This document shows, in pieces, positions 1 through 29,009 of a DNA stretch of 64,000 nt. Below the pieces are notes generated by a model. It had not been told where the DNA came from, ran no database searches, and worked only from the letters and a program-made list of their open reading frames with translations. The translations under genes and the position numbers were made by a program. The DNA is from Escherichia phage Barry: the sequence record LR880803; one strand, written 5' to 3'. Positions within the stretch are counted from its first letter, which is position 1; the number at the start of each line of letters is the position of its first letter.

Positions 1-2367
1 ATGCGCATGGTAAACGACCACGCAGAAGTGATTAAGAGTTCAACTTCTTTGGAGACATCTCAAGCACAGATTACAATGACACCTGAAATGTTCAGCCTTT
101 TGAGTTCAGGTGTATACACATTCAAAGAAAGGGCAGTGATTCGTGAACTGTCATGTAACGCAGTAGATGCTCAAAAAGAAGCTGGAAAAGAGAACATCCC
201 ATTCCATGTGCATTTACCTACTCGATTTGAGCCTTACTTTGAAGTCCGTGACTTTGGAACTGGTTTAACCCATGACAAAGTAATGAGTTTGTATCTGAAC
301 TATGGGGCTTCTACGAAGAATGACTCCAATGATTACATTGGTGCAATGGGTATCGGCTCAAAATCCCCATTTGCAATTGCTCAGTCATTCACAGTATCTA
401 GCTATGTTGATGGTGTTGTTAATAAGTACTCTGTTTACCTTGAGAATGGTATCCCTCAAGTAACTAAGCTTACTACCAACCCAACAAATGAACCCAATGG
501 TTTAGCTGTACGTGTGGCAGTTGCTGACCATCGTATTTCAAAGTTCTTTGAAGAGGCTGGTCACGTATACTCATACTTTGCTGTAAAACCAGAAAGTAAC
601 ATTGTATATGATGATGTATTAGCAGATATGAATGTCATTGCCCGTGAAGAGGGTGTTTATGATGCTATGATTCATAAGCAAAGCTGGCGTTCTAGTGGCA
701 ACAGGACAGAGTTTAATGTGGTGATGGGTAATATTGCCTACCCAGTGAACATGGAAGCATTACTTGGTGATGATTTCTTCAAAGTCTTGCCAGAGTTTTT
801 CCGTAGGAGCGTAGACCTTGTAAACATCTACATGCCTATTGGTTCAGTGGCTATTGCAGCTTCTCGTGAAGCATTGCAGATGAATGACACGACAAAAAAT
901 GTTATCATTGAGGCTACTAAAAAGATAACTGAAGCCATTACAAAGGATGTTATCAAGAAAGTTAACAACCAACCTACACTCATGGATGCTGCACAGGCTT
1001 ATGCTGAGTTACGTTTGAACTCACGAGAGATGTTTAATGCTGTGTGTCCAAAGCTAGAGTGGGGAGGCATTAAGCTTGATTCTCTGGAAGAAGAATTACT
1101 AAACATTCGTCGTGGGATTATCTACGCAGAAGACGGCTCAGTCATTTATGAACGTGACGGTAAAGGTAATATCAAGGTTGATAGGAACGGGAACAATATC
1201 CCTAAAGTGGATTATCTTTATAATCCAGTTGCTTATGTCAAGTTCAACTCTTTAGAGAGTAAGATTCGTGCAACAGCACTTTCCTACACTCAAGAGGCAA
1301 GTATGTTCAATATCTTTGGTGCAATGCGTAAAAGCCAAATTGAACAGTTTTTGTTCGTGATTAATGACCGTCGTAATAAAAATGGCACTGAGAAGACTGT
1401 AGGCCGCAATCAGATTCTGCGTGGTGCATGTCGAGACTATGCCAGTGAGTCAAGTCTGTTTCACAGATACAATGGTATTGTGTTTGTATTCTCGACTGAA
1501 AAAGATTTAGATGATTTAATCAATCTACACAAACTTGATAAAAGCTTGTTAAAGATTGTGAAAATGTCTGATAAGGAACACCATTACCAGCGCAAAGAAG
1601 CTGTAAGGGGTGTTGTAAAACTCTGGAAAGCTGTACCGGCAGAGGGTGTAGCCTCATACACAGAGGTGTCAGAAGACTTAGACACAATTGAAGAACCCCA
1701 GCTTTACATTAAGGCAGTAGGTGACACAGTTGATGGCGAATGCTTTTGCTCATCTCCAGAAGATGTAGCTAAGTCAGTTGCTAATTTTATAGGGAAGACA
1801 GTCTATGTTTTCCGAAAAGCAAATTGGAAAAAGATACCAGAAGACTGGATTGAAGTAGATGAGAAGCTCTTGAACGACAGCTTAACTGATGTTCACTGGA
1901 TTAATCATAACAGGTATATGACACGCATCTACATGAATGGTGTTCTTGACCTTACAAGCAGTTGGATTATTGCCAGAAACTTTACATTCAATAACAGGAA
2001 GATTTCTCGTGGTTATTGCTACTCACGAGATACTAGCAAAACTATCTTCCTAGAAGGTAACGAAGAGGCTGTAGAGGCAATTTTCGGTAAAATCCAGTAT
2101 GTTGCTGCACCATTTGCATACACTTACACTATTAGTGTGTTGAAGACTTTGAAAGAATGTCTTGACAATGATACAAAGCTTTACAAGAAAATTAAGAAAG
2201 CTGGCGACCGCATGGTTATTAAGTTGACAAACTACCTTTCAAAAAGAAAACAAGAAAACTTCTTGCTTTCCCATTTAGATTGGAATAAAGTGTCACCTAT
2301 TGAAGTGAGTAAGTTTTTAGGCTTTAATGTGAAATGTGTTCCAGAAGGTACAACAGTTTACGATTAA
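1..2367 (+). CDS. rIIA: rIIA-like protein with N-terminal GHKL (Hsp90/histidine-kinase type) ATPase fold; ORF begins at the window edge, so the true start may lie at or just upstream of position 1
   Basis: 788-aa ORF; GHKL N-box ELSCNAVDA, G1 box RDFGTGL, G2 box GAMGIGSKSPF; block order and surrounding residues (LLSSGVYTFKERAVIREL) match my recollection of T4 rIIA; followed by an rIIB homolog. Confidence 0.8.
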   Translation: MRMVNDHAEVIKSSTSLETSQAQITMTPEMFSLLSSGVYTFKERAVIRELSCNAVDAQKEAGKENIPFHVHLPTRFEPYFEVRDFGTGLTHDKVMSLYLNYGASTKNDSNDYIGAMGIGSKSPFAIAQSFTVSSYVDGVVNKYSVYLENGIPQVTKLTTNPTNEPNGLAVRVAVADHRISKFFEEAGHVYSYFAVKPESNIVYDDVLADMNVIAREEGVYDAMIHKQSWRSSGNRTEFNVVMGNIAYPVNMEALLGDDFFKVLPEFFRRSVDLVNIYMPIGSVAIAASREALQMNDTTKNVIIEATKKITEAITKDVIKKVNNQPTLMDAAQAYAELRLNSREMFNAVCPKLEWGGIKLDSLEEELLNIRRGIIYAEDGSVIYERDGKGNIKVDRNGNNIPKVDYLYNPVAYVKFNSLESKIRATALSYTQEASMFNIFGAMRKSQIEQFLFVINDRRNKNGTEKTVGRNQILRGACRDYASESSLFHRYNGIVFVFSTEKDLDDLINLHKLDKSLLKIVKMSDKEHHYQRKEAVRGVVKLWKAVPAEGVASYTEVSEDLDTIEEPQLYIKAVGDTVDGECFCSSPEDVAKSVANFIGKTVYVFRKANWKKIPEDWIEVDEKLLNDSLTDVHWINHNRYMTRIYMNGVLDLTSSWIIARNFTFNNRKISRGYCYSRDTSKTIFLEGNEEAVEAIFGKIQYVAAPFAYTYTISVLKTLKECLDNDTKLYKKIKKAGDRMVIKLTNYLSKRKQENFLLSHLDWNKVSPIEVSKFLGFNVKCVPEGTTVYD

Positions 2368-8219: not shown

Positions 8220-8426
8220 ATGCTTTACAGTCGCGAATTGATGGTTACAACTAACATTAACACAAAGGCAAAACGTTTTTACATGCAAATCTGTGGCGTA
8301 TGGTCCAGAATATCAGAAGCTGACTATTGCAACTATGTAGAAACGGCTATTAATTCGAATTGCTACCTTACAAGAAACACTAAGAAGTTTACAAGACAGA
8401 CAGCAATTTACTACTACGATAAATAA
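8220..8426 (+). CDS. hypothetical small protein
   Basis: 68-aa ORF with leader CTAAACTGGAGAATCTAAAAATG. Confidence 0.4.
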   Translation: MLYSRELMVTTNINTKAKRFYMQICGVWSRISEADYCNYVETAINSNCYLTRNTKKFTRQTAIYYYDK

Positions 8427-8512
8427 AGTACTTTACAAGGGGCTTATAGTTCGATAAAGTAAGCCCCAGATAAAGAGCTTTACTAACTAACCTTAAACTA
8501 GGAGATTCAAAA
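8426..8512 (+). repeat. leader cassette family A, copy 1 (hairpin GGGGCTTA...TAAGCCCC + SD)
   Basis: GTACTTTACAAGGGGCTTATAGTTCGATAAAGTAAGCCCCAGATAAAGAGCTTTAC...GGAGATTCAAAAATG; embedded TTTACA-17-TAAAGT. Confidence 0.7.
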
Positions 8513-8896
8513 ATGGCTTATCGTGCACCGAAATTCATCAACAAAGACAACTTTCGCAAAGTACTGGAGAAGTCACTTGATGAGAATTTTAAAGGCAATA
8601 TTATTGTTGTTCACGCATTCAATTTTAAGTATGATGTAAACGGGAATAGAATCAACCATTACACGGCAACCATGTTAGATGGTACACTATCAAGTGAAAA
8701 AGCCGTACTGAATGCACTAGCAGGACGCGGAAAAGTATTAGTAAGATGCGATAAGCGACGTTATCAGGGTGGCGCATATGGTTATGATGATGCTGTTTAT
8801 CATCTTGAAAATATGGGCTATAAAGTAGAAAAAGCTGGAGTATCGCAAATCATCGGGAGCGATGGTTATGTAACAATCTTCAAAATTAACGAATAA
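8513..8896 (+). CDS. hypothetical protein
   Basis: 127-aa ORF directly after cassette A. Confidence 0.5.
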   Translation: MAYRAPKFINKDNFRKVLEKSLDENFKGNIIVVHAFNFKYDVNGNRINHYTATMLDGTLSSEKAVLNALAGRGKVLVRCDKRRYQGGAYGYDDAVYHLENMGYKVEKAGVSQIIGSDGYVTIFKINE

Positions 8897-8982
8897 AGTA
8901 CTTTACAAGGGGCTTATAGTTCGATAAAGTAAGCCCCAGATAAAGAGCTTTACCACTAAATCCTAAATTGGAGAACTTAAAA
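8896..8982 (+). repeat. leader cassette family A, copy 2
   Basis: near-identical to copy 1. Confidence 0.7.
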
Positions 8983-9276
8983 ATGGCTATTATCAAAAAC
9001 GTTGTAATTGCTGCAAAAACTCGTGATGACGCTCGCGTTATGGCTAAAAAGTTATGCGGGAAAGTGGTTGACAATGGGAAAAAATCTGCTGTAAGATGGG
9101 GCGTAAAGGTTGATAAACAGTTGAAGTTAAAAAATTCACCGATAAACCTTTTTACATGTGTAAACACTATCGGGAAGACAAATGTATACACGAAAAAGGC
9201 ATACATTAGACGCGTAGCATTAACATCCCCCATTCGTACAATGAGAAGTTATGCAAAGCTGAAAAATAACCGATAA
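8983..9276 (+). CDS. hypothetical protein (MAIIKN...)
   Basis: ATG at 8983 follows the cassette SD; track ORF 8968 begins at an in-frame TTG inside the cassette. Confidence 0.5.
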   Translation: MAIIKNVVIAAKTRDDARVMAKKLCGKVVDNGKKSAVRWGVKVDKQLKLKNSPINLFTCVNTIGKTNVYTKKAYIRRVALTSPIRTMRSYAKLKNNR

Positions 9277-9363
9277 AGTACTTTACAAGGGGCTTAAAAG
9301 TTGATATCTTAAGCCCCAGATAAAGAGCTTTACCACTAAATCCTTAAACTAGGAGACTCAAAA
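9276..9363 (+). repeat. leader cassette family A, copy 3 (variant loop, stem preserved)
   Basis: GGGGCTTAA-aagttgatatc-TTAAGCCCC, a compensated 9-bp stem. Confidence 0.7.
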
Positions 9364-9660
9364 ATGAAATTATCGAATAAAGTTCGTGAAAATCTAAGCA
9401 AGTTACTCAACAAAATTGATTTTATCGAGACATCAAGAAATAATCATGATGTTATGGAATGGTTGCACGGCAAAATAAAAGGCCGTCGCGTAGTGATTTG
9501 CTTATGGAATAGTTGCAGGGAGTATAAAAAACCTGTATTGCAAGTAAATATTTATGATGATACTTTTAAAAGTCCAGTAAAGTCTAAAAGTGACTTATTA
9601 GAATCCTATGAGATAACTGTAAATGGCAAAGTATCACGTAAAGAGGAAACACCATGTTAA
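9364..9660 (+). CDS. hypothetical protein
   Basis: 98-aa ORF after cassette SD. Confidence 0.5.
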   Translation: MKLSNKVRENLSKLLNKIDFIETSRNNHDVMEWLHGKIKGRRVVICLWNSCREYKKPVLQVNIYDDTFKSPVKSKSDLLESYEITVNGKVSRKEETPC

Positions 9661-9986
9661 TGACTGGCATCACCGCAATCCTTGCCATTTTCGCGCTATA
9701 TAAGGCATATAAAGCCTATAATCTAGCAAATAAGGCAATCACGCAACAGGTCAATAATAGCCTTGTAATGAGCTTTCTGGAGCGTTTAAGTGATGAACAA
9801 ATAAAACGGTTAGAAATGAGCTTCAGATTTCAATCAAAAACTTATCAAATCAGCGACATTTTCAAAGATGATTTTCAGTTAGTCGATGATTATAATTCTC
9901 TGATAAATGCTTTAAATGTCAGTGACTTAAAAGACTACTACGCTGTAATTGTTCAAGAATTGAGCAAACGAAAAAATTTCTCTTGA
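9654..9986 (+). CDS. hypothetical small membrane protein
   Basis: 110 aa, N-terminal hydrophobic segment GITAILAIFALY; overlaps previous by 7 nt. Confidence 0.4.
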   Translation: MLMTGITAILAIFALYKAYKAYNLANKAITQQVNNSLVMSFLERLSDEQIKRLEMSFRFQSKTYQISDIFKDDFQLVDDYNSLINALNVSDLKDYYAVIVQELSKRKNFS

Positions 9987-10073
9987 TTTTGGTTTTTAAA
10001 ACAAGTAAATTACTAATCAACGGGAGGTAATAACCTCCCCACTAAGTAAAGTCCTTAAACTAGGAGATTCAAA
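9987..10073 (+). repeat. leader cassette family B, copy 1 (hairpin GGGAGG-TAATAA-CCTCCC + SD)
   Basis: TTGATTTTGGTTTTTAAAACAAGTAAATTACTAATCAACGGGAGGTAATAACCTCCCCACTAAGTAAAGTCCTTAAACTAGGAGATTCAAAATG. Confidence 0.7.
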
Positions 10074-10346
10074 ATGTACACTACTAACAACGGTCGCACC
10101 TTAAACGTAACCATTCGTCACTATGTGAACGGTGTAATGCACTTCGAAGATTTACAAGCCGAACAACATATCTTAGATTGGCAACTTGCAGGACTACAAA
10201 AAACTGCTACAGGATACGGGAAAAAGATTCCAACCAGTTGGAAAGTATACTACGAAGGCCGTTTGCGCAGAATTTATCAAGATGTATACAGCAATAGCGC
10301 AACAAGTTACATCATAGTAAAAGGTAAAAAGCTGCATTTAGTGTAA
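10074..10346 (+). CDS. hypothetical protein
   Basis: 90-aa ORF after cassette B. Confidence 0.5.
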   Translation: MYTTNNGRTLNVTIRHYVNGVMHFEDLQAEQHILDWQLAGLQKTATGYGKKIPTSWKVYYEGRLRRIYQDVYSNSATSYIIVKGKKLHLV

Positions 10347-10543
10347 AGTACTTTACAAGGGGCTTATAGTTCGATAAAGTAAGCCCCAGATAAAGAGCTT
10401 TACCACTAAATCCTAAAGCAATAGCGCAACAAGTTACATCATAGTAAAAGGTAAAAAGCTGCATTTAGTGTAAAGTACTTTACAAGGGGCTTATAGTTCG
10501 ATAAAGTAAGCCCCAGATAAAGAGCTTTACCACTAAATCCTAA
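10290..10543 (+). repeat. perfect tandem direct duplication, 2 x 127 bp (3' end of gene 10074..10346 plus cassette A)
   Basis: 10290..10416 and 10417..10543 are identical as read. Confidence 0.8.
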
Positions 10544-10559
10544 ATTGGAGAACTTAAAA

Positions 10560-10964
10560 ATGGCTATTAATAATCGCGAGTTGTCAATCTTAAAAGCACG
10601 TTTGACCGTTAACCGGATTAATGTTATTACGTCATCAGCACCGGACGAAACATTGCACAACATTATTGGGAAGATTCAAAGCGTTATCTTAGACGTTGAA
10701 AACGTAAAAAACTCATTGGCTGACGTTGCAGCAGGTATCACGCTAGACGGTGCACAATATGAAATGTCCGACATGTTAGGCAAATCTAAGGTAATGAATA
10801 AAGAGCTTGATTTGAAAATGTTTCGGTTTGCTGTTAAAGTGTGGCTATCTGTCGAGTATGACGCTAACTTTGCAATCGCTGACTTTTTCGCCACTTGGTT
10901 ACAACGTAATTTGACAAATCATGATTTTCGTGGTATCTGCGATGCAATTTACACAGAACTATAA
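10560..10964 (+). CDS. hypothetical protein (MAINNRELS...)
   Basis: ATG at 10560 after cassette SD; track ORF 10545 starts at an in-frame TTG. Confidence 0.5.
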   Translation: MAINNRELSILKARLTVNRINVITSSAPDETLHNIIGKIQSVILDVENVKNSLADVAAGITLDGAQYEMSDMLGKSKVMNKELDLKMFRFAVKVWLSVEYDANFAIADFFATWLQRNLTNHDFRGICDAIYTEL

Positions 10965-11065
10965 AAATTTCTCTTGATTTTGATTTTTAAAACAAGTAAA
11001 TTACTAATCAACGGGAGGTAATGACCTCCCCACTAAACAAAGTCCTTAAACTAGGAGATTCAAAA
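10965..11065 (+). repeat. leader cassette family B, copy 2
   Basis: same unit as 9987..10073, with GGGAGGTAATGACCTCCCC. Confidence 0.7.
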
Positions 11066-11269
11066 ATGGCTATTATTAACGGTTTAACCATTGAAACTAC
11101 ACACATCAAAGATATTAAAGTCGGTGATGTAGTTCTCTTTCACGGCGTAGAAAAAACCGTCACGGCGAAAGATATTACAGAAGACTCCTTCATGGGTAGG
11201 TCACTCTTCGGTGATTCTTATTGCTTAGGTTACCGTGCAGTTTTAAAAGTTGTAAAAAATAACCGATAA
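11066..11269 (+). CDS. hypothetical small protein (MAIINGL...)
   Basis: ATG at 11066 follows cassette SD; track ORF 11021 starts upstream inside the cassette. Confidence 0.45.
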   Translation: MAIINGLTIETTHIKDIKVGDVVLFHGVEKTVTAKDITEDSFMGRSLFGDSYCLGYRAVLKVVKNNR

Positions 11270-11354
11270 AGTACTTTACAAGGGGCTTATAGTTCGATAA
11301 AGTAAGCCCCAGATAAAGAGCTTTACCACTAAATCCTAAACTGGAGATTCTAAA
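11270..11354 (+). repeat. leader cassette family A, copy 6
   Basis: same unit as 8426..8512. Confidence 0.7.
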
Positions 11355-11897
11355 ATGAAATGCTTTCACGGTACTACCCAAGAAAATTTCCTCAACCTGA
11401 TTAATAACGGTGACAAGCCATCAGGTGCATGGAATTGTTCGGATATGGACGGCAATTTTTACGTGTACCCAGAAAATAAAATCTATGGCGACGATGAGGA
11501 AGAGATAATCTCTGAAGGTATCCAGCAAGCGTTAGGTAATGCCACTATTACGGCCGCTTTCCAGATGAAAACACAAAATATTGTTATCTTAGAACTTGAT
11601 ATCCCAGAGGATGACCTAAATGACGATTATTCTTGTGATAATATGTCTGGCGTAGCAAGTTTTACAGAATACTTCGATTTAAATTGGATTAAAAAGGTTT
11701 ACGTAACAGAGTTTAACGCTATGTATTCGCCTTTTTGTCTTCCTTCATTGGATAACCCAAATTTAAATTATCTTGATGAGTCTCTGGAGCTTCTTGCTAA
11801 AAGTGTCCAACAGTCGGACAGTATTCAGGTTTTTTGTGACATCATGGACACACTAACGGGAAACATCGCAGAAGAGGATTTAAAGAGCTTTTTCTAA
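11355..11897 (+). CDS. hypothetical acidic protein
   Basis: 180-aa ORF after cassette SD. Confidence 0.5.
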   Translation: MKCFHGTTQENFLNLINNGDKPSGAWNCSDMDGNFYVYPENKIYGDDEEEIISEGIQQALGNATITAAFQMKTQNIVILELDIPEDDLNDDYSCDNMSGVASFTEYFDLNWIKKVYVTEFNAMYSPFCLPSLDNPNLNYLDESLELLAKSVQQSDSIQVFCDIMDTLTGNIAEEDLKSFF

Positions 11898-11930
11898 AAA
11901 CCTATGCAATCGCCTTATAAACACTGATTA

Positions 11931-11949
11931 GCCCCTCACAGGGGCTTTT
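11931..11949 (+). terminator. rho-independent terminator
   Basis: GCCCCT-CACA-GGGGC followed by TTTT. Confidence 0.55.
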
Positions 11950-11963
11950 AAGAGGCTTAAATC

Positions 11964-12197
11964 ATGCTTACAACCGTTTATCTTATCCTTTCTATTTGTA
12001 ATGGTCATTCATGTGATTTTAAAGGGCTTGAGGAGTTTACAGGAAGTAAAGAAAATGCTGTTCAGGTCTGTCAGATAGCAAGGCAAGACTACCCCGCCAG
12101 TGATGACATACAATGTTACTTTAAGACAGAAGATGAAGATGGTATCTATTTCGATAGTGTAGACGGTCAATATGAAATAATTATAGAAAAAGACTAG
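11964..12197 (+). CDS. hypothetical small protein
   Basis: 77-aa ORF; weak SD. Confidence 0.35.
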   Translation: MLTTVYLILSICNGHSCDFKGLEEFTGSKENAVQVCQIARQDYPASDDIQCYFKTEDEDGIYFDSVDGQYEIIIEKD

Positions 12198-12287
12198 ACA
12201 AGCCTGATAAAAATCTGTAAATTACTAATCAACGGGGAGGGAATGACCTTCCCCACTAAACAAAATCCTAAACTGGAGATTCAAAAA
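12198..12287 (+). repeat. leader cassette family B, copy 3 (stem variant GGGGAGGG/CCTTCCCC)
   Basis: TGTAAATTACTAATCAACGGGGAGGGAATGACCTTCCCCACTAAACAAAATCCTAAACTGGAGATTCAAAAAATG. Confidence 0.7.
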
Positions 12288-12629
12288 ATGGCTTATGTAA
12301 CCGTAATTACTGATAAAGAGGGTTCATCTTGGTCAACTCAGGTTAGTGATAAGATGTCGCCTATGCAGTGCCTAAAATACTTTGAACAGTGGAACAAAGG
12401 CGAGGACACAAGCCCCTTTCAAGTGATGCAGATTATCCATGTAGACAATGAAGGGAAGAAAACGACTTTAAACAGCGAGTTCTATGCAACCCGATTTGAA
12501 ACGAGATGTAAAACGATGAAGTTATTACGTGAATCCGGTTATGCCCATATCGCCGCGTTAATCTGGGATGACCTGCTAAAAAGTCAGCGTATCAGCTATG
12601 TAAAACCTGAAAAAATATTCATCAGTTAA
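12288..12629 (+). CDS. hypothetical protein (MAYVTVITDKEG...)
   Basis: ATG at 12288 after cassette SD. Confidence 0.45.
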   Translation: MAYVTVITDKEGSSWSTQVSDKMSPMQCLKYFEQWNKGEDTSPFQVMQIIHVDNEGKKTTLNSEFYATRFETRCKTMKLLRESGYAHIAALIWDDLLKSQRISYVKPEKIFIS

Positions 12630-12650
12630 TCAATAACTTACAAAAAACTT

Positions 12651-12679
12651 TCAAAAAAGTATTGACAACGCCCCTTGAC
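12651..12679 (+). promoter_or_regulatory. candidate sigma70-like promoter (tandem TTGACA boxes)
   Basis: TTGACA-acgcccc-TTGACA ... TAGATT in a 220-bp gap. Confidence 0.3.
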
Positions 12680-12769
12680 ATTGGTAGATTTGTTCGAGGG
12701 GGTTTATCTAAAAGGGATTAACTTAAAAGATTCTTTATAGATAAACTTAAAAAATTGCTTGCAATCAGA

Positions 12770-12850
12770 TATCAAAACAAGTAAATTACTAATCAACGGG
12801 AGGTAATAGCCTCCCCACTAAACAAAGTCCTTAAACTAGGAGATTCAAAA
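12770..12850 (+). repeat. leader cassette family B, copy 4
   Basis: AAAACAAGTAAATTACTAATCAACGGGAGGTAATAGCCTCCCCACTAAACAAAGTCCTTAAACTAGGAGATTCAAAAATG. Confidence 0.7.
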
Positions 12851-13381
12851 ATGAACAAATTTCAAGCTATCAACTACATTCGCTCAAATGCTGTAATGTC
12901 TAAGCCTGTTAAAGATACCTATGAATTTCGCTGCAATGGGGTACACTTTGCAACCATCACTAAATCAGAAAACGGGGCTTATTACGTTCATCGTCGTAAT
13001 GTTGCAACCGTTGTAGTCTCTCACTTTATGCAAGCTGTAGCAGAGTTATTACCGCTATTCTTAGGGATTTACTTGGATGAGTGTAAAAACGTTCACAACC
13101 ACGTTAAAAACCTTTTAAACGGTTATAAAATGGCTTATGAACGTTCTATCAAGTCACTAAACAAGTTTTACAATGCACCTGCAAATACTGTTTCAATGGC
13201 TTATGATGTAAACGGTGAGTTAGTTAGTCTCTTTAAAGTGGAAGAGATTAAACTGTATAATTTACGTCCTAGTGGTTACTCTAAGACTCTTGGTGAAGGT
13301 TTAACGTTCAATATCAAGAACTTAGAAAAAACTTTAAAAGACATTGAAAAAGATATTGACGAGACACTTAAAAGTCTGTAA
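12851..13381 (+). CDS. hypothetical protein
   Basis: 176-aa ORF after cassette SD. Confidence 0.5.
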   Translation: MNKFQAINYIRSNAVMSKPVKDTYEFRCNGVHFATITKSENGAYYVHRRNVATVVVSHFMQAVAELLPLFLGIYLDECKNVHNHVKNLLNGYKMAYERSIKSLNKFYNAPANTVSMAYDVNGELVSLFKVEEIKLYNLRPSGYSKTLGEGLTFNIKNLEKTLKDIEKDIDETLKSL

Positions 13382-13447
13382 ATTGTCAATCAACGGGGAG
13401 GGAATGACCTTCCCCACTAAATAAAGTCCTAAACTGGAGTTATCAAG
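13376..13447 (+). repeat. leader cassette family B, copy 5
   Basis: stop codon of the upstream gene lies inside the unit (cTGTAAATTG...). Confidence 0.7.
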
Positions 13448-13711
13448 ATGGAAAACGTAGAATTAACCACACTTTTACAAATTGCAACCGACAAAGAAAA
13501 CGTAGCTTTATTTCACCGCATCGAAAGTGATTTGTTCAATGGTGAAATCATCAAAGAGTCTTACGAGGTTGTTGGATTCAAAGATGGTAAAACATTTGGA
13601 TTCTTTGACCTCGAAAAAGGCAACGCTGTTACAAAATATGATGTTTTATCTTGTGAGATTCTTACAAAATACAACGAAAAAAGGCTTGCAACATACGCCA
13701 ATATGCAGTAA
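13448..13711 (+). CDS. hypothetical small protein
   Basis: 87-aa ORF after cassette SD. Confidence 0.45.
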   Translation: MENVELTTLLQIATDKENVALFHRIESDLFNGEIIKESYEVVGFKDGKTFGFFDLEKGNAVTKYDVLSCEILTKYNEKRLATYANMQ

Positions 13712-13777
13712 ATTACTAATCAACGGGAGGCGATAACCTCCCCACTAAATAAAACCCTTAAACTAGGAGATTCAAAA
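13706..13777 (+). repeat. leader cassette family B, copy 6
   Basis: CAGTAAATTACTAATCAACGGGAGGCGATAACCTCCCCACTAAATAAAACCCTTAAACTAGGAGATTCAAAAATG. Confidence 0.7.
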
Positions 13778-14026
13778 ATGGCAACTATCCGCGCTACTGT
13801 TAACGAGTTCGGTTTTTCCTCTCTGGATGTTAAATTTGACATTGCAGGCACTGATAACGCCTTTGAAATGGTGAAAGGTCTTATCAGTCAGACCATCAAA
13901 GACTATAATCCTTCTGATGAGTTCTGGAAAGAAACAAAACAGGAAGTTCTCAAAGAGGGTTATTCTTATCACTATTGGGGTGAAAAAATTGTCTCTCTGT
14001 ACTACGACAAAGAAGGCACTAACTAA
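13778..14026 (+). CDS. hypothetical small protein
   Basis: 82-aa ORF after cassette SD; followed by terminator. Confidence 0.5.
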   Translation: MATIRATVNEFGFSSLDVKFDIAGTDNAFEMVKGLISQTIKDYNPSDEFWKETKQEVLKEGYSYHYWGEKIVSLYYDKEGTN

Positions 14027-14092: not shown

Positions 14093-15708
14093 CTATCCAA
14101 TCCTTATACAATCCCTTTCCTCACCTTTTCAGAATCTTATCAGACCTTAAAAGCAATAACTCTATAGTCTACTCTATAGCCTTTTATCAAATCAACTTAA
14201 ATATAAGCCAATAACCCCAGAAAGGGGATGGCCCACTTAAACGCTCTATAAAGCGCTATAACAACCTTATCAATCTAACTTAAGGGATTGCATTAACTCA
14301 CCCTTAAAAGCTCTTTACAGGGCTTTATAGAGGCTTAAAAGAATCTTATAAGGTTATGAGCTTTATTGTCTCGTTAGTATCTTGTGAATAGTTAAACAAT
14401 CCCCTTGATAGTCACTAAAAAGTATGTTATAGGGGCTATAAAGTTACTTCAAAGTTACGTAAAAGGGGCTATAAAGTTACGTAAATGCTAACCCCCTTAA
14501 CATTTTCTTAACAATTTCTTAACAATCCCTACATAGTTATGCTTGTTAGAGACTTGTTAGCCCCTTGTTAAATCTCTGTTAAAATCACGTAAAAGCCTTG
14601 TAAGAGTCTTTGACATAGCCTTAAAAGCTCCTGTAAAGCCCTATAAAGAGGTATCTGTACAGTTGGGTGATAGATACTAGGAAGAGACTTAAAAGAGCTT
14701 ATAAAGAGCTATAGAGAGCTTTTAAGAGGTATGTTTAAAGAATCACTAAGAAAGGAAAGGGAACGATAAGAAAGAAGTAGTGACCATGTTAATAGCTTGT
14801 TAAAAAGATTAAACACTTGTTAGAAACTTGTTAATTATCTTAATTGGTATTGTTACCAATCCCTACAAAATAACTCTTAAAAATTAACTTGTTAGCTCTT
14901 GTTAGTCATCTGTTAAGCCTCTGTAAAGACTATGTATCAACTATTAAGAAACTGTTAAGCCCTTGTTAGTTCTGTTAAGAATCTGTTAAGACCTTTGAAG
15001 AGTTGTTAAGAAGATGTGAGAGCTGTTAAGAGATTGTTAAGGATATTTTAAAATTTTGCAAAGTACTTGTAAGGGAGCTGTTAAGGGCTACCAAGCAGAT
15101 ATACATCCTAATCAGATATTTTTCAGTTCCTTCAAAGACCCTAAAAAATGACTTGATAGTCCTATTTTATAAAAATTTTAAGATTCTGAATAATTACCTA
15201 TACAGTCTTTTAAAAATACAGGTAGAAACAGGCTTATAAGATACCTTGTTAGTACCGTGTTAGACCTTGTGAGATAAGGTCTGTAAAGATATCCCTGTTA
15301 AGTTTGTTAAAACAGTCTATATAGAGGCTTAGTAATACCTAGTGAACACCTATAGAGAGTGTCATAGCTGACATAGAGATTAAGAGGTGTATAGGGGCTT
15401 CTAAGAGGGTATAGAGAGACGGTTAAGGTGATTGTATAGGTTGTTAAGAAGGCTTGTTAGAAGAGTGTTTAGAAGGCTTGTTAGAGGGCTTGTTAGAAGG
15501 GTTATACAGAAGGGCTATTAAGACCACTAGATAGTTACTAAGATACTATATAGTACTATATAACTATATATATAGAGAGTAAGATTAAGAAGGTTGTTAA
15601 GAAGGATAGATATTTTGTTCACATATAATGGTGACCCAGAGGTTGGGACAACCGATAAAATTTTATAAAAATTAAAAAGCCCCCAATTAAGGAGGCTCTT
15701 AAGATATT
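14093..15708. repeat. 1.6-kb ORF-free, AT-rich region packed with degenerate short motifs (CTTAAAAG, TATAAAGAGG, CTTGTTAG/CTGTTAAG, GGCTTGTTAGAAG)
   Basis: no ORF of 60 aa or more on either strand; lies between convergent + and - gene blocks. Confidence 0.6.
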
Positions 15709-24949: not shown

Positions 24950-25026
24950 CTCTGTTTAGCTCAGATTGGTAGAGCGTTCCGTTTGGGGCGGTAAGGCCGG
25001 AGGTTCAAGTCCTCCAACAGAGACCA
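24950..25026 (+). tRNA. tRNA, anticodon read as TGG (Pro)
   Basis: acceptor CTCTGTT/AACAGAG, T-arm GGAGG-TTCAAGT-CCTCC, CCA encoded. Confidence 0.6.
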
Positions 25027-25033
25027 AATTAAT

Positions 25034-25111
25034 GTTCCAGTAGACAAAATGGTATAGTCACCACTCTTTCAAAGTGGATATCTGAGGGTTCAAATCCCTT
25101 CTGGAACGCCA
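25034..25111 (+). tRNA. tRNA, anticodon TTC (Glu)
   Basis: acceptor GTTCCAG/CTGGAAC, anticodon stem CCACT/AGTGG loop CTTTCAA, CCA encoded. Confidence 0.65.
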
Positions 25112-25203
25112 GTTTTGACAGAAGACCAATTACAGCAAACTTAATCTTATTCATCTGAAGGTAAATCGGACAAAGAAGAGATTTGGTCTGGTCATTAAGA
25201 ATT

Positions 25204-25279
25204 GCGGGTATAGAGAAAGGGCGTCTCACATGTCTCATTAGCATGGTATCGGCAGGTTCGACTCCTGCACCCGCCTCCA
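25204..25279 (+). tRNA. tRNA-like, anticodon CAT (Met/Ile2 type); boundaries approximate
   Basis: T-arm GCAGG-TTCGACT-CCTGC, anticodon stem CATGT/GCATG loop CTCATTA; acceptor pairing imperfect. Confidence 0.45.
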
Positions 25280-25357
25280 ATTTTGCAGAAGACCGTATTC
25301 AGCAACAAAATACTTTTTTGCGGATAAAAGAAAAAACACGGTCTGGCAATGTATTAA

Positions 25358-25434
25358 GGTTAGGAAGCACATAAGGTATGTGCGGTCGCCTGTTAAGCGA
25401 ATGGCACAGGGTTCGAATCCCTGACTAACCGCCA
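25358..25434 (+). tRNA. tRNA, anticodon GTT (Asn)
   Basis: acceptor GGTTAGG/ACTAACC, T-arm CAGGG-TTCGAAT-CCCTG, CCA encoded. Confidence 0.6.
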
Positions 25435-25442
25435 AATTAAAT

Positions 25443-25530
25443 GTGTCGTTATCCCGTAGATGGTAGCGGTGGGGACTGTAAATCCCTTGTCATTGAGACT
25501 CGGTAGGTTCGACTCCTACACGGCACACCA
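25443..25530 (+). tRNA. class II tRNA (long variable arm), anticodon GTA (Tyr)
   Basis: 88 nt; acceptor GTGTCGT/ACGGCAC; T-arm GTAGG-TTCGACT-CCTAC; loop CTGTAAA. Confidence 0.65.
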
Positions 25531-25535
25531 ATAAA

Positions 25536-25612
25536 GGCTATGTAGTTTAACTGGAGAAAATACTCCCCTGTCACGGGAGATGATGTGAGTTCAAGTCTCA
25601 TCGTAGCCGCCA
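25536..25612 (+). tRNA. tRNA, anticodon GTC (Asp)
   Basis: acceptor GGCTATG/CGTAGCC, anticodon stem CTCCC/GGGAG loop CTGTCAC. Confidence 0.65.
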
Positions 25613-25634
25613 ATTTTGAGAGGGCTATTTAGCC

Positions 25635-25672
25635 CCTCCCTTAAAGAGTTCTTACGAGTATTCTTTAAGGGA
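25635..25672 (+). ncRNA. 12-bp perfect hairpin between tRNAs (possible processing signal or small RNA)
   Basis: CTCCCTTAAAGA-gttcttacgagtat-TCTTTAAGGGAG. Confidence 0.35.
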
Positions 25673-26042
25673 GCAGAAGACCAAATACAGCAAGAATGTA
25701 TGAAATTTCAAGCCAATTTAATTTTGAAAATTTAAAACTTGGTCTGGCTCAACAAATTTACAGAAGGCCGTTTACAGCAAAACTTAAACAATCTATTTCT
25801 CCGGTACAGAAAAGGCGAAGGTTCGATTCCTTCACTCGGCAGATGTCGAGTTGGTGTAATGGTAGCACTTAAGATGATAAACAACGGTCTGGTAATTACC
25901 TTTGTAGATAAGTTATTAAGCTTACTTGTGAGTATGCGACCACAAAGGGTGAATGGGTAAATTCTAGATTTAAACCCAAAAAAGGCACATCGCTACAGAC
26001 CTTAAGCAAGTCTGGGTAGCTTATCTACAAAGATAATTTAAT

Positions 26043-26118
26043 GGAAGTGTAGCAGAATGGTGATGCGGCAGACTTTTAATCTGACAGGCGATGGGTTCGA
26101 ATCCCTCCACTTCTACCA
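26043..26118 (+). tRNA. tRNA, anticodon TTT (Lys); weak T-stem
   Basis: acceptor GGAAGTG/CACTTCT, loop CTTTTAA, T-loop TTCGAAT, CCA encoded. Confidence 0.5.
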
Positions 26119-26122
26119 ATAT

Positions 26123-26199
26123 GGTTCAGTCGCAGATAAGGTAATGCAAGGGTCTCATAAGCCCTATGAATGTGGGTTCGATTCCCATCTGAACCTCCA
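26123..26199 (+). tRNA. tRNA, anticodon CAT (Met/fMet/Ile2 type)
   Basis: acceptor GGTTCAG/CTGAACC, loop CTCATAA, T-loop TTCGATT. Confidence 0.6.
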
Positions 26200-26200
26200 A

Positions 26201-26276
26201 GCTGGTATAGTTAAGAAGGTTATAACACTCCCCTGATAAGGGAACATCGGTGGTTCGATTCCACCTACCAGTACCA
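26201..26276 (+). tRNA. tRNA, anticodon GAT (Ile)
   Basis: acceptor GCTGGTA/TACCAGT, T-arm GGTGG-TTCGATT-CCACC, loop CTGATAA. Confidence 0.6.
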
Positions 26277-26290
26277 ATTTCAATAAAGTT

Positions 26291-26319
26291 GTTGACATTG
26301 AGATGTGACTACTTTATAG
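26291..26319 (+). promoter_or_regulatory. internal sigma70-like promoter in the tRNA island
   Basis: TTGACA - 17 bp - TATAGT. Confidence 0.5.
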
Positions 26320-26522
26320 TAACCTTAGTTTTCGTTGCGTAGCGTCTATTTTGCAAATTTAAAATAAATGCAAACGACAATGTTTTTCTGGCAGTAGCTT
26401 GATAGGCTAAACACCAGTGAGGTCTTCCAATCCCTCATCAAAGAATTTGGCGTACTCGCCCACGGTATGATTAATAAGGTGGGCATCTTTAAGGGCTTTC
26501 TAAGAGAGTCTTTAAAGATAAT

Positions 26523-26599
26523 GCACCCTTAGTTCAATTGGATAGAGCAACGGTCTTCTAAATCGTTAGTTACAGGTTCGAATCCTGTAGGGTGTACCA
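26523..26599 (+). tRNA. tRNA, anticodon TCT (Arg)
   Basis: acceptor GCACCCT/AGGGTGT, D-arm GTTCAATTGGATAGAGC, T-arm ACAGG-TTCGAAT-CCTGT. Confidence 0.65.
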
Positions 26600-26742
26600 A
26601 ATAGTTAGCAGATTACTTAGACGGCCTTAGCGGGTCTTCCTGTAGGGAGGTGGTCTGTATCTCATGTTTTCCAGAACATGTAAATAATCTGAGAAGAAGC
26701 TTGACAGTGTTGAGATAATACGGTAAGCTTCGAATTATAGTA

Positions 26743-26820
26743 TGGGACGATGTTAAGACTCTAAGGCATGAGCAACGGCCTCCAAAACCGTTTCAAAGGG
26801 GTTCAACTCCTCCGTCCCAT
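26743..26820 (+). tRNA. tRNA, anticodon CCA (Trp); CCA not encoded
   Basis: acceptor TGGGACG/CGTCCCA, loop CTCCAAA, T-loop TTCAACT. Confidence 0.55.
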
Positions 26821-26837
26821 GCTAAAGATTGTTTCGG

Positions 26838-26924
26838 AGAGAGTGGCGGTCAACGGAGACCAACCAGCCTTGAAAACTGGTGCTGCTGGAAACGGTACGG
26901 GTTCAACTCCTGCACTCTCTGCCA
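26838..26924 (+). tRNA. class II tRNA, anticodon TGA (Ser)
   Basis: 87 nt; acceptor AGAGAGT/ACTCTCT; loop CTTGAAA; long variable arm. Confidence 0.6.
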
Positions 26925-26948
26925 AAATAATTTTTAAGGTGGTGATTA

Positions 26949-27289
26949 TGAAGAAAGGTTCAGTAGGTGAAATTGCTACACAATTAGCTTTCCTCAAAAG
27001 AGGTTATGAAGTATATTCACCAGCTACAGATAATGCAAAGTATGACTTTCTAGTTCACAAAGATGGTTTGATTGAAACTGTTGAGGTAAAATCAACATCA
27101 GTCAAAAGAGGTGAACTTTGGAGAGTGCAACTGAAAAGAGTTCGTTCTAACAAGAATGAAAATAGAATAATGAATTTTGATAACTCTCAAGTTGATTACT
27201 TAGCTGTTTACATTGAACCACTTGATAAAGTCGTCATCTACAAAGCTAAAGATGTCAAGTCTAAGACTGAACTTAGCTTAAAGATTTAA
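26949..27289 (+). CDS. small PD-(D/E)xK-type nuclease-like protein embedded in the tRNA island (Hjc/resolvase-like motif order)
   Basis: ATG at 26949 behind strong SD AAGGTGGTGA; GEIATQLAFLKRGYEV ... YDFLV ... VEVKS matches the E...D...E-x-K arrangement; track ORF 26768..27289 upstream part overlaps tRNAs and is not coding. Confidence 0.45.
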
Positions 27290-27530
27290 AGCCAAGCTTC
27301 ATTCGGATGTCGCTTTGGTATCCCTCGTGTATTGTCGTACACTGTCAAAGCACCTAGTAGGTGTCACGGAGAAGAGATAATATCAAGCTCTCCAAAGGTT
27401 CTAGTCACCGGATTAAACAAGACTATGCAAAGACCTATTTAGGTCTTTTTAGAGGGCTTCTAAGGTTATTAGTCGCTTGTTGTGGAACCTTGTTGCTCAG
27501 GTTCTTAGAAGTTCTCTAAAAAGATTTAAT

Positions 27531-27607
27531 GCACCTATAGCCCAACTGGTAGAGGCAGCAGACTTAGAATCTGCTCAGTGTGAGTTCGAATCTCTCTAGG
27601 TGTACCA
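27531..27607 (+). tRNA. tRNA, anticodon read as TAG, short variable arm (identity uncertain)
   Basis: acceptor GCACCTA/TAGGTGT, anticodon stem GCAGA/TCTGC loop CTTAGAA, T-loop TTCGAAT. Confidence 0.5.
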
Positions 27608-27614
27608 AATTAAT

Positions 27615-27690
27615 GCAGGTGTAGCAAAATGGTTATGCGGCTGACTCTTAATCAGTAAGACGATGGGTTCAATTCCCTCCACCTGTACCA
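27615..27690 (+). tRNA. tRNA, anticodon read as CTT (Lys), paralog of 26043..26118
   Basis: acceptor GCAGGTG/CACCTGT, loop CTCTTAA. Confidence 0.5.
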
Positions 27691-27696
27691 AACAAT

Positions 27697-27772
27697 GGGG
27701 TCATAGTTTATATGGTTAAAATTCGAGTTTTGCAAACTTGGGAACTGAGTTCAATTCTCAGTGACTCCACCA
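27697..27772 (+). tRNA. tRNA, anticodon tentatively TGC (Ala)
   Basis: acceptor GGGGTCA/TGACTCC, T-arm CTGAG-TTCAATT-CTCAG. Confidence 0.5.
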
Positions 27773-27778
27773 ATTAGT

Positions 27779-27853
27779 GCATCCATAGTTTAAACGGGAA
27801 AATTACAGTCTTCCAAACTGAGGTTGAGGGTTCGATTCCCTCTGGATGCTCCA
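27779..27853 (+). tRNA. tRNA, anticodon TCC (Gly)
   Basis: acceptor GCATCCA/TGGATGC, T-arm GAGGG-TTCGATT-CCCTC, loop CTTCCAA. Confidence 0.6.
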
Positions 27854-27860
27854 AATTAAT

Positions 27861-27935
27861 GCTCCTATCGTATAATTGGTTATTACGGTTGCCTTGTAAG
27901 CAACTTATCAGGGTTCGAGTCCTTGTGGGAGCACC
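27861..27935 (+). tRNA. tRNA, anticodon TGT (Thr)
   Basis: acceptor GCTCCTA/TGGGAGC, anticodon stem GTTGC/GCAAC loop CTTGTAA. Confidence 0.65.
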
Positions 27936-27939
27936 AATT

Positions 27940-28028
27940 CAGAGGTCAAGTGAAAGACCGCTTTGAGTCAACTGAAGACCGTAACAAATTCCACGAAGTT
28001 GAGTTAGCGGCACAACTTCAGACCTCTT
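27940..28028 (+). ncRNA. structured inter-tRNA spacer (candidate small stable RNA or processing element)
   Basis: long-range complement CAGAGGTC ... GACCTCT enclosing inner hairpin GAAGTTG...CAACTTC. Confidence 0.3.
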
Positions 28029-28032
28029 TCAT

Positions 28033-28107
28033 ACTCGCTTAGTTTATATGGTAAAACATCACCCTTACAAGATGAAGAAAAAGGTTCAAGTCCTTTAGTG
28101 AGTACCA
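28033..28107 (+). tRNA. tRNA, anticodon TAC (Val)
   Basis: acceptor ACTCGCT/AGTGAGT, D-stem GTTT/AAAC, T-arm AAAGG-TTCAAGT-CCTTT, loop CTTACAA. Confidence 0.55.
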
Positions 28108-28108
28108 T

Positions 28109-28186
28109 GTTCCAGTATCCCAATTGGCAGAGGATGCAAGCTCAAACCTTGTATTAGTGACGGTTCGAATCCGTCTTGGAACACCA
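28109..28186 (+). tRNA. tRNA, anticodon read as CAA, short variable arm (identity uncertain)
   Basis: acceptor GTTCCAG/TTGGAAC, T-arm GACGG-TTCGAAT-CCGTC. Confidence 0.5.
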
Positions 28187-28191
28187 ATTTT

Positions 28192-28267
28192 GCAGGATTA
28201 GTTCAAATGGATAGAGCAACAGTCTACGAAGCTGTTAATAGGGGTTCGAATCCCTTATCCTGCGCCA
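28192..28267 (+). tRNA. tRNA, anticodon ACG (Arg)
   Basis: acceptor GCAGGAT/ATCCTGC, D-arm GTTCAAATGGATAGAGC, loop CTACGAA. Confidence 0.65.
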
Positions 28268-28286
28268 ATTTAAAGAGGCTATTTAG

Positions 28287-28844
28287 ATGAGATATTTGAA
28301 GTATGCTTCATGGATTTTCTTAGCTTTGTTAGAGCCATTTGCAGCAATCTTAGCAGTTATCTTAGCACCTTTTGTAGTTCCATTCTACAGTGAGAAGAAA
28401 GGACACTTACCTTTCGGGTTCAGATGGATGGAGACATATGACAACCCAATTGATGGTGATGAAGGTCACGTTAAAAGATGGGCTAATATTAGATGGATTG
28501 GTAAACTAGGTGTCTACATGCAAAGAGTCGGATGGCTCTGGAGAAACAAAGCTTATAACTTCTCTTACCATGTATTAGGAAGAGATGTAAGAGATGTTAC
28601 TAAGTGGAAAGGTAATATCAACGTAAGTTCTGACCCCGAAGATAATCAGACAGGTTATCTCCTAATGTGGAACAGTAATGCTTGGGGATTATTCGCTTTT
28701 ATCCCATCAATTAAAATCTTTGGTAAACAATTTTACTGGAGAATTTATATTGGATGGAAACTAAAAAGTGTTGTCCCAGAAGAAAGAGCATTCTCAAGGG
28801 AAAGAGTTATGTTGGCATTCTTTATTCATCCACTGAGAAAGTAA
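28287..28844 (+). CDS. hypothetical Trp-rich membrane protein embedded in the tRNA island
   Basis: 185 aa; SD AAAGAGG; N-terminal hydrophobic segment FLALLEPFAAILAVILAPFVVPF. Confidence 0.45.
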   Translation: MRYLKYASWIFLALLEPFAAILAVILAPFVVPFYSEKKGHLPFGFRWMETYDNPIDGDEGHVKRWANIRWIGKLGVYMQRVGWLWRNKAYNFSYHVLGRDVRDVTKWKGNINVSSDPEDNQTGYLLMWNSNAWGLFAFIPSIKIFGKQFYWRIYIGWKLKSVVPEERAFSRERVMLAFFIHPLRK

Positions 28845-28852
28845 AGATTTAA

Positions 28853-28928
28853 AGGGGATTAGTTTACAAGGTTAAAACCTCGGTCTTTGAAATCGAAGAA
28901 GTTGGTTCAATTCCAACATCCCCCGCCA
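28853..28928 (+). tRNA. tRNA, anticodon TTG (Gln); 1:72 mismatch
   Basis: T-arm GTTGG-TTCAATT-CCAAC, D-stem GTTT/AAAC, loop CTTTGAA. Confidence 0.55.
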
Positions 28929-28930
28929 AT

Positions 28931-29009
28931 GCTCCATTACTCCAATTGGCAGAGAGGCCAGACTTAAAATCTGTGTTATGTATCGGTTCGAATCCGATAT
29001 GGAGTACCA
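28931..29009 (+). tRNA. tRNA, anticodon read as TAA (identity uncertain)
   Basis: acceptor GCTCCAT/ATGGAGT, T-arm ATCGG-TTCGAAT-CCGAT, loop CTTAAAA. Confidence 0.5.

What the first reader, a model, noticed from the sequence alone, without database searches (positions are those of the whole stretch)
10290..10543. Perfect 127-bp tandem duplication spanning a gene 3' end plus a leader cassette
Seen: 10290..10416 and 10417..10543 are identical as read, each being the last 57 bp of gene 10074..10346 plus cassette A. Perfect identity implies a very recent event, or an assembly artifact. If real, it is direct evidence that the cassettes act as recombination or slippage substrates that shuffle the array. 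It also creates the spurious antisense ORF 10439..10663.
Basis: seen in the sequence. Interest (0 to 1): 0.5.

Follow-up and report, generated by a model that had tools for sequence, protein, structure and literature searches.

The report
Untrimmed assembler overlap, not a duplication
The perfect 127-bp tandem repeat is really in the sequence, but it is almost certainly a leftover SPAdes k-mer overlap that became internal when the circular-looking phage assembly was re-opened at the rIIA gene, so it says nothing about how this phage shuffles its genes.

Summary
10290-10416 and 10417-10543 are identical, and this is the only long perfect tandem repeat in the window. The window is Escherichia phage Barry, a Felix O1-like myovirus.

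The biological reading is not supported. [quoted passage not shown] Window base 1 is the ATG of rIIA, where this phage group is opened "by precedent". The genuine 581-613-bp terminal repeat of relatives maps once, internally, at 14492-15092. So the record is a circularised, rotated assembly.

All relatives examined carry one copy. Deleting either copy restores their 273-bp gene, 86-bp spacer and 405-bp gene exactly. The junction is absent from every collection searched. The left edge lies in unique coding DNA with only 1 nt of microhomology, so the event is not cassette-to-cassette. The right edge is, to the base, where two cassette copies stop being identical, a likely assembly-graph branch point. 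A relative, REP12, carries an untrimmed 77-bp end overlap that is itself such a cassette.

Artefact probability about 0.93. Only reads or PCR can close it. Interest is low.

The parts
10290..10416 (.). Copy 1 of the 127-bp unit: last 57 bp of the 90-aa gene plus the first 70 bp of the intergenic cassette A
10417..10543 (.). Copy 2, identical to copy 1. The 10416/10417 junction is the inferred join of the original contig's end to its start.
   Evidence: The 24-mer across the junction is absent from the viral, genome and metagenome collections. The best 25 of 247 matching GenBank phage records all match the junction query only as two pieces.
10074..10346 (+). 90-aa early gene (phrog_3436, unknown function). 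It is intact, because copy 1 completes it.
   Evidence: The 273-bp orthologues in adrianh, heid and LinBro are followed by an 86-bp spacer.
10560..10964 (+). 134-aa early gene (phrog_4327, unknown function). It is intact and keeps a complete cassette A upstream.
   Evidence: 405-bp orthologues in relatives.
10472..10562 (+). Complete cassette A: TTTACA-N17-TAAAGT promoter-like site, GGGGCTTA..TAAGCCCC hairpin, GGAG and ATG. The copy at 10345-10417 is the same cassette cut off by the junction.
11268..11347 (+). Neighbouring cassette A copy. Its exact identity with copy 10472 ends at the base equivalent to 10544, which is the right limit of the duplication.
   Evidence: This is also the cassette that forms REP12's 77-bp untrimmed end overlap.
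8425..9344 (+). Three further cassette A copies (8425-8483, 8895-8985, 9275-9344). The 8895 copy is identical to the 10472 copy over about 100 nt.
1..2367 (+). rIIA. Window base 1 is its ATG and coincides with base 1 of several curated Felixounavirus records, showing the record was re-opened after assembly.
   Evidence: The convention is stated in PMC3185647 and PMC4591319.
14492..15092 (.). Equivalent of the genuine direct terminal repeat of relatives (581 bp in D4, 613 bp in SeKF_63). Here it is present once and internal, so the assembly ran through a collapsed terminal repeat.
   Evidence: A 581-bp DTR was found by PhageTerm in Pr103Blw (PMC8303462).
10312..10464 (-). 50-aa antisense ORF, the only ORF that crosses the junction. 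It is spurious.

Best explanation
The 127-bp tandem repeat is an assembly and curation artefact. The phage (Escherichia phage Barry, a Felixounavirus) has a linear genome with direct terminal repeats of about 600 bp. Short-read assembly collapses these, so the genome looks circular. A de Bruijn assembler then emits the circle as a linear contig whose first and last k bases are the same; for SPAdes with long reads k = 127. The contig was cut near a cassette A. This is probably because the cassettes are the main dispersed repeats, and reads linking two copies (rare recombinants or library chimeras) create a graph branch exactly where the copies diverge. The submitter then re-opened the sequence at the rIIA start codon, the convention for this group, by joining the old end to the old start without trimming the overlap. 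That placed two adjacent identical 127-mers inside the record. Shown here: the exact length, the re-opening at rIIA, the collapsed internal terminal repeat, single copy in all relatives examined, a unique junction, the boundary anatomy, and the same kind of untrimmed overlap in a relative. Inferred: the assembler and its k, the manual join, and the reads that would create the branch point.
For: (1) The length is exactly 127 bp at 100% identity and the copies abut. 127-bp artificial overlaps at SPAdes contig ends are documented in PMC5923482. In U136B the 127 bp were removed before re-opening (PMC8104045). In AXL1 a 127-bp duplication at the assembly ends was not confirmed by PCR and Sanger sequencing (PMC9206674). 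Repeats of about 79 bp sat inside 7 of 10 re-oriented short-read phage assemblies, and Sanger sequencing showed most to be artefacts (PMC10438801).
(2) Window base 1 is the rIIA ATG and equals base 1 of the VpaE1, JK55, FO1a, FG1m and FM4b records. Opening at rIIA is the stated convention.
(3) The genuine terminal repeats of D4 (581 bp) and SeKF_63 (613 bp) map to window 14492-15092, once and internally.
(4) The ten relatives aligned differ from the window by one clean 127-bp gap. 184 of 214 matching phage records cover at least 80% of the 627-bp query. Every listed match is either about 500 bp long (627-127) or about 1150 bp because BLAST joined neighbouring cassette matches; heid and LinBro, inspected from the latter group, are single copy.
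(5) The junction was found nowhere else.
(6) The right limit of the repeat (10544) is the last base at which cassette copies 10472 and 11268 are identical.
(7) REP12 (OQ174511.1) has first 77 bases equal to last 77 bases. 77 is a SPAdes k, and that 77-mer is a cassette A copy ending 3 nt from the same cassette position. KEP3 has a 44-bp end overlap beside the same cassette.
Against: At k = 127 the cassettes (100 nt or less of exact identity) are not graph repeats in themselves. A cut exactly at a cassette divergence point therefore needs minority linking reads, or else is a coincidence of roughly 2-3%. Two related genomes carry perfect tandem duplications of non-k-mer length in the same array: SP116 with 90 bp and Michonne with 430 bp. 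Real duplications here therefore cannot be dismissed a priori.
Confidence: 0.93

Rival explanations
1. This is a real, very recent tandem duplication produced by illegitimate recombination or replication slippage. It is tolerated because it leaves both flanking genes intact and simply gives the 134-aa gene two tandem promoter and hairpin cassettes.
For: Both genes stay intact. Perfect singleton tandem duplications also occur in this array in SP116 (90 bp) and Michonne (430 bp), and like this one they end at the edge of cassette identity. The hairpin (-18 kcal/mol, z = -2.8) could in principle stall replication.
Against: A real event would have to be exactly 127 bp by coincidence, which I estimate (not computed) at under 1% for a broad length distribution. 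Only 1 nt of microhomology lies at the edges. It was not seen in any relative. The record shows every precondition of the artefact. The two comparators are themselves unverified singletons, and at least one comes from a SPAdes assembly re-opened at rIIA.
Confidence: 0.05
2. This is the product of homologous, PeSL-type recombination between cassette copies, in the form of unequal crossing-over or mini-circle reintegration.
For: The region is an array of promoter plus stem-loop cassettes flanking small genes of unknown function. This resembles the PeSL arrays of T4-type phages, which do mediate indels (PMC2839356, PMC4122927).
Against: PeSL events have both crossovers inside cassettes and yield a gene plus a chimeric cassette. 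Here the left edge is 55-57 bp inside unique coding sequence, and the unit holds only a gene fragment. Unequal exchange between the nearest cassette A copies would duplicate 796 bp or more, not 127 bp.
Confidence: 0.01
3. The repeat is the phage's true terminal redundancy (direct terminal repeat), internalised by concatenating the ends.
For: Felixounaviruses do have direct terminal repeats.
Against: Those repeats are 581-613 bp and map to window 14492-15092, about 4 kb away. In the window that region is single copy.
Confidence: 0.01

Closest known systems
k-mer-length terminal overlap of de Bruijn assemblers on circular or terminally redundant genomes (SPAdes, 127 bp)
   Same: Exact length 127, perfect identity, and a phage genome that assembles as a circle because its terminal repeat collapses. 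The literature describes the same overlap, its removal before re-opening, and its disproof by PCR.
   Different: Here the overlap is not at the record ends. It sits 10.3 kb inside, because the sequence was rotated to start at rIIA. The closest published parallel is the set of internal repeats of about 79 bp in re-oriented przondovirus assemblies.
PeSL (promoter-early stem-loop) cassettes of T4-type phages and their modular shuffling
   Same: The surrounding array has the same design. Conserved intergenic units carry a sigma-70-like promoter, a GGGG...CCCC hairpin and a ribosome-binding site, and they flank small genes of unknown function in a variable early region.
   Different: This is a different phage subfamily (Ounavirinae), and the hairpin sits between the -35 and -10 hexamers. 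The 127-bp repeat itself lacks the hallmark of PeSL exchange, which is both crossovers inside cassettes.
Untrimmed end overlaps in other Felixounavirus records (REP12 OQ174511.1, 77 bp; KEP3 PP047753.1, 44 bp)
   Same: Same genus, and the same cassette family lies at the contig cut. In REP12 the overlap equals a SPAdes k value.
   Different: In those records the overlap remains at the two record ends, because they were not re-opened.

Membership tests
Assembler k-mer end overlap internalised by re-opening | Repeat length equals the assembler's largest k (SPAdes: 127), with perfect identity and abutting copies | tested here: met
   127 bp, 100% identity, tandem. The 127-bp SPAdes overlap is documented.
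Assembler k-mer end overlap internalised by re-opening | The record was rotated relative to the raw contig | tested here: met
   Window base 1 is the rIIA ATG and equals base 1 of five other curated records. The convention is stated.
Assembler k-mer end overlap internalised by re-opening | The genome assembled as a circle, with the terminal repeat collapsed and internal | tested here: met
   The DTR-equivalent 14492-15092 is present once, internally.
Assembler k-mer end overlap internalised by re-opening | Removing one copy restores the architecture of relatives, and the junction is unique to this record | tested here: met
Assembler k-mer end overlap internalised by re-opening | No sequencing reads span the junction, and depth is not doubled | not testable with these tools
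   No read data are available.
Assembler k-mer end overlap internalised by re-opening | Documented use of SPAdes (or another assembler) with k = 127 for this genome | not testable with these tools
   The source was identified as Escherichia phage Barry, but no paper describing its assembly was found.
PeSL-type cassette-mediated rearrangement | Both breakpoints lie inside homologous cassettes, leaving a chimeric cassette | tested here: not met
   The left breakpoint lies in unique coding DNA 57 bp before the stop codon. The edges share 1 nt of homology.
PeSL-type cassette-mediated rearrangement | The mobilised unit is a whole ORF plus a cassette | tested here: not met
   The unit holds only the last 57 bp of a gene plus 70 bp of cassette.
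PeSL-type cassette-mediated rearrangement | Sigma-70-like promoter plus stem-loop cassettes flank small genes in a variable region | tested here: met
   This is true of the surrounding array, not of the duplication. TTTACA-N17-TAAAGT occurs at five cassettes, with a hairpin of -18 kcal/mol and the copy list. Promoter and terminator activity was not tested.
Phage direct terminal repeat | Position and length match the termini of relatives | tested here: not met
   Relatives have 581-613-bp repeats at window 14492-15092.
Microhomology-mediated or slippage tandem duplication | Short direct repeat at the two edges of the duplicated segment | tested here: not met
   Only one matching base (A at 10290 and 10544), which is chance level.

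The most novel reading that the evidence does not exclude
The repeat is real and belongs with the SP116 (90 bp) and Michonne (430 bp) duplications. All three end exactly at the edge of cassette identity, which would point to an unrecognised duplication process in Ounavirinae early regions that is directed at cassette edges and does not depend on homology. Examples would be a break or template switch at the end of the promoter-hairpin cassette. A weaker version is compatible with the artefact reading: the contig broke at that exact base because the phage stock contained minority cassette-to-cassette recombinants, as PeSL mini-circle formation would produce.
Probability: 0.05. Interest if true: 0.45.

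Novelty: not a real feature. Interest (0 to 1): 0.08.

Why it matters
The main value is database hygiene. The record is the exemplar of the ICTV species Felixounavirus barry and probably carries 127 spurious bases, so the true length would be 87,566 rather than 87,693 bp. At least one relative (REP12) keeps an untrimmed 77-bp overlap. Repeats of this kind look like fresh duplications at regulatory cassettes and can mislead studies of repeat-driven phage evolution. Perfect tandem repeats of length 55, 77, 99 or 127 in rotated phage genomes should be treated as artefacts until reads say otherwise. The surrounding PeSL-like cassette array in Felix O1-type phages is the biologically interesting object, but this repeat is not evidence about its dynamics.

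Tried and rejected
- Exact-protein look-ups for the two flanking genes and the tail fibre found no sibling assembly of this phage. The only hit was LinBro, which has one copy.
- The 24-mer across the junction gave nothing in the viral, genome or metagenome collections.
- A fuzzy-regex catalogue of the cassettes timed out and was replaced by blastn-short.
- Rfam found nothing credible in 7.7-16 kb; both hits had E > 0.5 and scored far below gathering thresholds.
- Literature searches for phage Barry found no description of its assembly.
- The terminal-repeat explanation was tested and rejected.
- I considered whether an arbitrary assembler cut landing in a cassette (about 3% by my estimate) argued for a real event. 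I set this aside after finding that REP12's and KEP3's contig ends lie in or next to the same cassette family, and that the right edge is an exact cassette divergence point.
- heid and garuso were checked for end overlaps and have none.

Full report
**Observation.** Positions 10290-10416 and 10417-10543 are identical base for base. Tandem Repeats Finder reports period 127, 2.0 copies, 100% matches and score 510. No other repeat of period 40 or more exists in the 64-kb window. Period-127 identity extends one further base, to 10544. Each unit is the last 57 bp of the 90-aa gene 10074-10346 plus the first 70 bp of the 86-bp spacer that precedes the 134-aa gene 10560-10964.

One side claim is wrong. 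The 74-aa antisense ORF 10439-10663 is unchanged when one copy is deleted. Only the 50-aa antisense ORF 10312-10464 crosses the junction.

**What the window is.** The window is a Felix O1-like myovirus. Eight of ten window proteins match exactly to Escherichia phage Barry (CAD51603xx, 87,693-bp record), and the 783-aa tail fibre is unique to it. Barry is the exemplar of the species Felixounavirus barry. The repeat lies in the early region downstream of rIIA/rIIB. This is a run of small genes of unknown function (phrog_3436 and phrog_4327 for the two flanking genes), separated by two families of conserved intergenic cassettes.
- Cassette A has a promoter-like TTTACA-N17-TAAAGT with a GGGGCTTA..TAAGCCCC hairpin between and over the hexamers (-18 kcal/mol, z = -2.8), then GGAG and ATG.
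- It occurs at 8425, 8895, 9275, 10345 (cut by the junction), 10472 and 11268, with up to about 100 nt of exact identity between copies.
- In design the array resembles the PeSL cassettes of T4-type phages (PMC2839356, PMC4122927).

**Comparison with relatives.** In adrianh, heid and LinBro the orthologous 273-bp gene is followed by an 86-bp spacer and the 405-bp gene. An alignment with ten relatives shows the window differs by one clean 127-bp insertion; removing either copy restores their architecture exactly. Of 214 GenBank phage records matching the 627-bp region, 184 cover at least 80% of it. Every listed match is either about 500 bp long (627 minus 127), or about 1150 bp because BLAST joined matches to neighbouring cassettes. 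Two of the latter, heid and LinBro, were inspected and carry one copy. A 100-bp query centred on the junction matched only as two pieces in every one of the 25 listed records, out of 247 that matched. The 24-mer across the junction is absent from the viral, genome and metagenome collections. The duplication is therefore private to this record.

**Why it is most likely an artefact.**
- *Length.* It is exactly 127 bp, the largest k-mer SPAdes uses. [quoted passage not shown] For U136B 127-bp terminal repeats were removed before the genome was re-opened (PMC8104045). For AXL1 a 127-bp duplication at the assembly ends was not confirmed by PCR and Sanger sequencing (PMC9206674). Elek et al. found repeats of about 79 bp inside 7 of 10 re-oriented short-read phage assemblies, and Sanger sequencing showed most to be artefacts (PMC10438801).
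- *The record was rotated after assembly.* Window base 1 is the ATG of rIIA and coincides with base 1 of the VpaE1, JK55, FO1a, FG1m and FM4b records. The Felix O1 paper and the Michonne announcement state that these genomes are opened at rIIA for annotation, "by precedent".
- *The assembly behaved as a circle.* The genuine direct terminal repeats of relatives are 581 bp in D4 and 613 bp in SeKF_63, each measured as record start equal to record end. A 581-bp repeat was found by PhageTerm in Pr103Blw. They map to window 14492-15092, where they occur once and internally. This also removes the idea that the 127-bp repeat is the terminal redundancy.
- *The boundaries do not fit a biological mechanism.* The left edge lies in unique coding sequence, the two edges share one base, and no chimeric cassette is formed. 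PeSL-type exchanges have both crossovers inside cassettes and move a whole gene plus a cassette.
- *The right edge fits an assembly graph.* The last base of period-127 identity (10544) is exactly the last base at which cassette copy 10472 is identical to copy 11268: "...CCTAAA|T" against "...CCTAAA|C". A de Bruijn graph branches at that position if any reads link the two copies.
- *The same thing is visible, un-rotated, in the genus.* In REP12 (OQ174511.1) the first 77 bases equal the last 77 bases. 77 is the top SPAdes k for 150-bp reads. That 77-mer is a cassette A copy (window 11260-11336) ending 3 nt from the same cassette position. KEP3 has a 44-bp end overlap right beside the same cassette. 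heid and garuso have none.

**Caveats.**
- No reads are available and no description of Barry's assembly was found, so the assembler is inferred from the length.
- At k = 127 the cassettes are too short to be graph repeats in themselves. A cut at the exact divergence point therefore implies minority linking reads (rare cassette-to-cassette recombinants or library chimeras), or a coincidence of a few percent. This step is inference.
- Two related records carry perfect tandem duplications of non-k-mer length in the same array. SP116 has a 90-bp duplication of a whole cassette B. Michonne has a 430-bp duplication of cassette, 85-aa gene and next cassette, annotated as two identical genes. Both end exactly after the shared ATG, the edge of cassette identity. 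Each is confined to its own record and RefSeq twin. Michonne came from SPAdes 3.5.0 on 250-bp reads and was re-opened at rIIA. They may be join artefacts of another kind or real events, and I could not decide between these. They keep a small probability alive for a real duplication here.

**Weighing.** These likelihoods are my own rough estimates, not computed values.
- A real duplication being exactly 127 bp has a likelihood well under 1%; an untrimmed SPAdes overlap being 127 bp has a likelihood of order one half.
- The rotation to rIIA, the collapsed terminal repeat, the branch-point edge and the REP12 precedent all point the same way.
- I put the artefact at about 0.93, a real illegitimate duplication at about 0.05, and the cassette-homology and terminal-repeat explanations at about 0.01 each.

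**Verdict.** The repeat is in the sequence, but it is very probably not a feature of the phage. It gives no evidence that the cassettes shuffle the array. Interest is low. The useful outcomes are a probable correction to a species-exemplar record (87,566 rather than 87,693 bp), a flag on REP12 and KEP3, and a simple decisive test: junction-spanning reads, or a 224-bp versus 351-bp amplicon across 10250-10600.

Noticed in passing
window 8400-13800: An array of two conserved intergenic cassette families separates small early genes of unknown function. Cassette A has a TTTACA-N17-TAAAGT promoter-like site with a GGGGCTTA..TAAGCCCC hairpin plus an SD sequence. Cassette B has a promoter-like site plus a GGGAGG..CCTCCC hairpin plus an SD sequence. 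The design is PeSL-like. Cassette A is recognisable in Mooglevirus (Michonne, Mordin), and a junction query made of two cassette A-type copies matched 287 phage records, including 29 Erwinia phages. The Felix O1 genome paper does not describe these cassettes as such.
   Followed up: partly
window 14492-15092: This noncoding region corresponds to the genuine direct terminal repeat of relatives (D4 581 bp, SeKF_63 613 bp) and is present once here. Short tandem repeats lie in and just beyond it: an 11-mer x2.8 at 14496, an 11/20-mer array at 14682-14732, a 31-mer x3.2 at 14944 and a 12-mer x4.9 at 15441. It is probably the packaging and terminus region, where early-gene transcription on the + strand meets genes on the - strand.
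   Followed up: partly
OQ174511.1 (REP12) record ends, L041/L042; PP047753.1 (KEP3), L043/L044: The REP12 record has an untrimmed 77-bp overlap between its two ends, which is a cassette A copy. KEP3 has a 44-bp overlap just downstream of the same cassette. Both look like assembler leftovers in deposited 'complete' genomes.
   Followed up: yes
L008 10778-10957 (Salmonella phage SP116, KP010413 12717-12896): A perfect 90-bp tandem duplication of a whole cassette B up to and including the ATG, with a third identical copy at L008 9914-10003. It is found only in this record and its RefSeq copy. Whether it is real or an artefact is undecided.
   Followed up: partly
L030 7008-7867 (Citrobacter phage Michonne, KT001916, about 82.2-83.0 kb): A perfect 430-bp tandem duplication of cassette A, an 85-aa gene and the next cassette, annotated as two identical genes (CPT_Michonne127 and 128). 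Its junction joins the ATG at the end of one cassette to the -35 region of another with no homology. It is a singleton. The assembly was SPAdes 3.5.0, re-opened at rIIA.
   Followed up: partly
window 24950-30204: A cluster of 26 tRNA genes on the + strand, typical of Felixounavirus.
   Followed up: no
window 50868-50946, 53334-53373, 57764-57821: Imperfect short tandem repeats (27-, 21- and 20/25-nt units). The first two lie inside the 382-aa and 783-aa tail-fibre genes. The 783-aa tail fibre (51121-53472) is unique to phage Barry in the protein collection.
   Followed up: no
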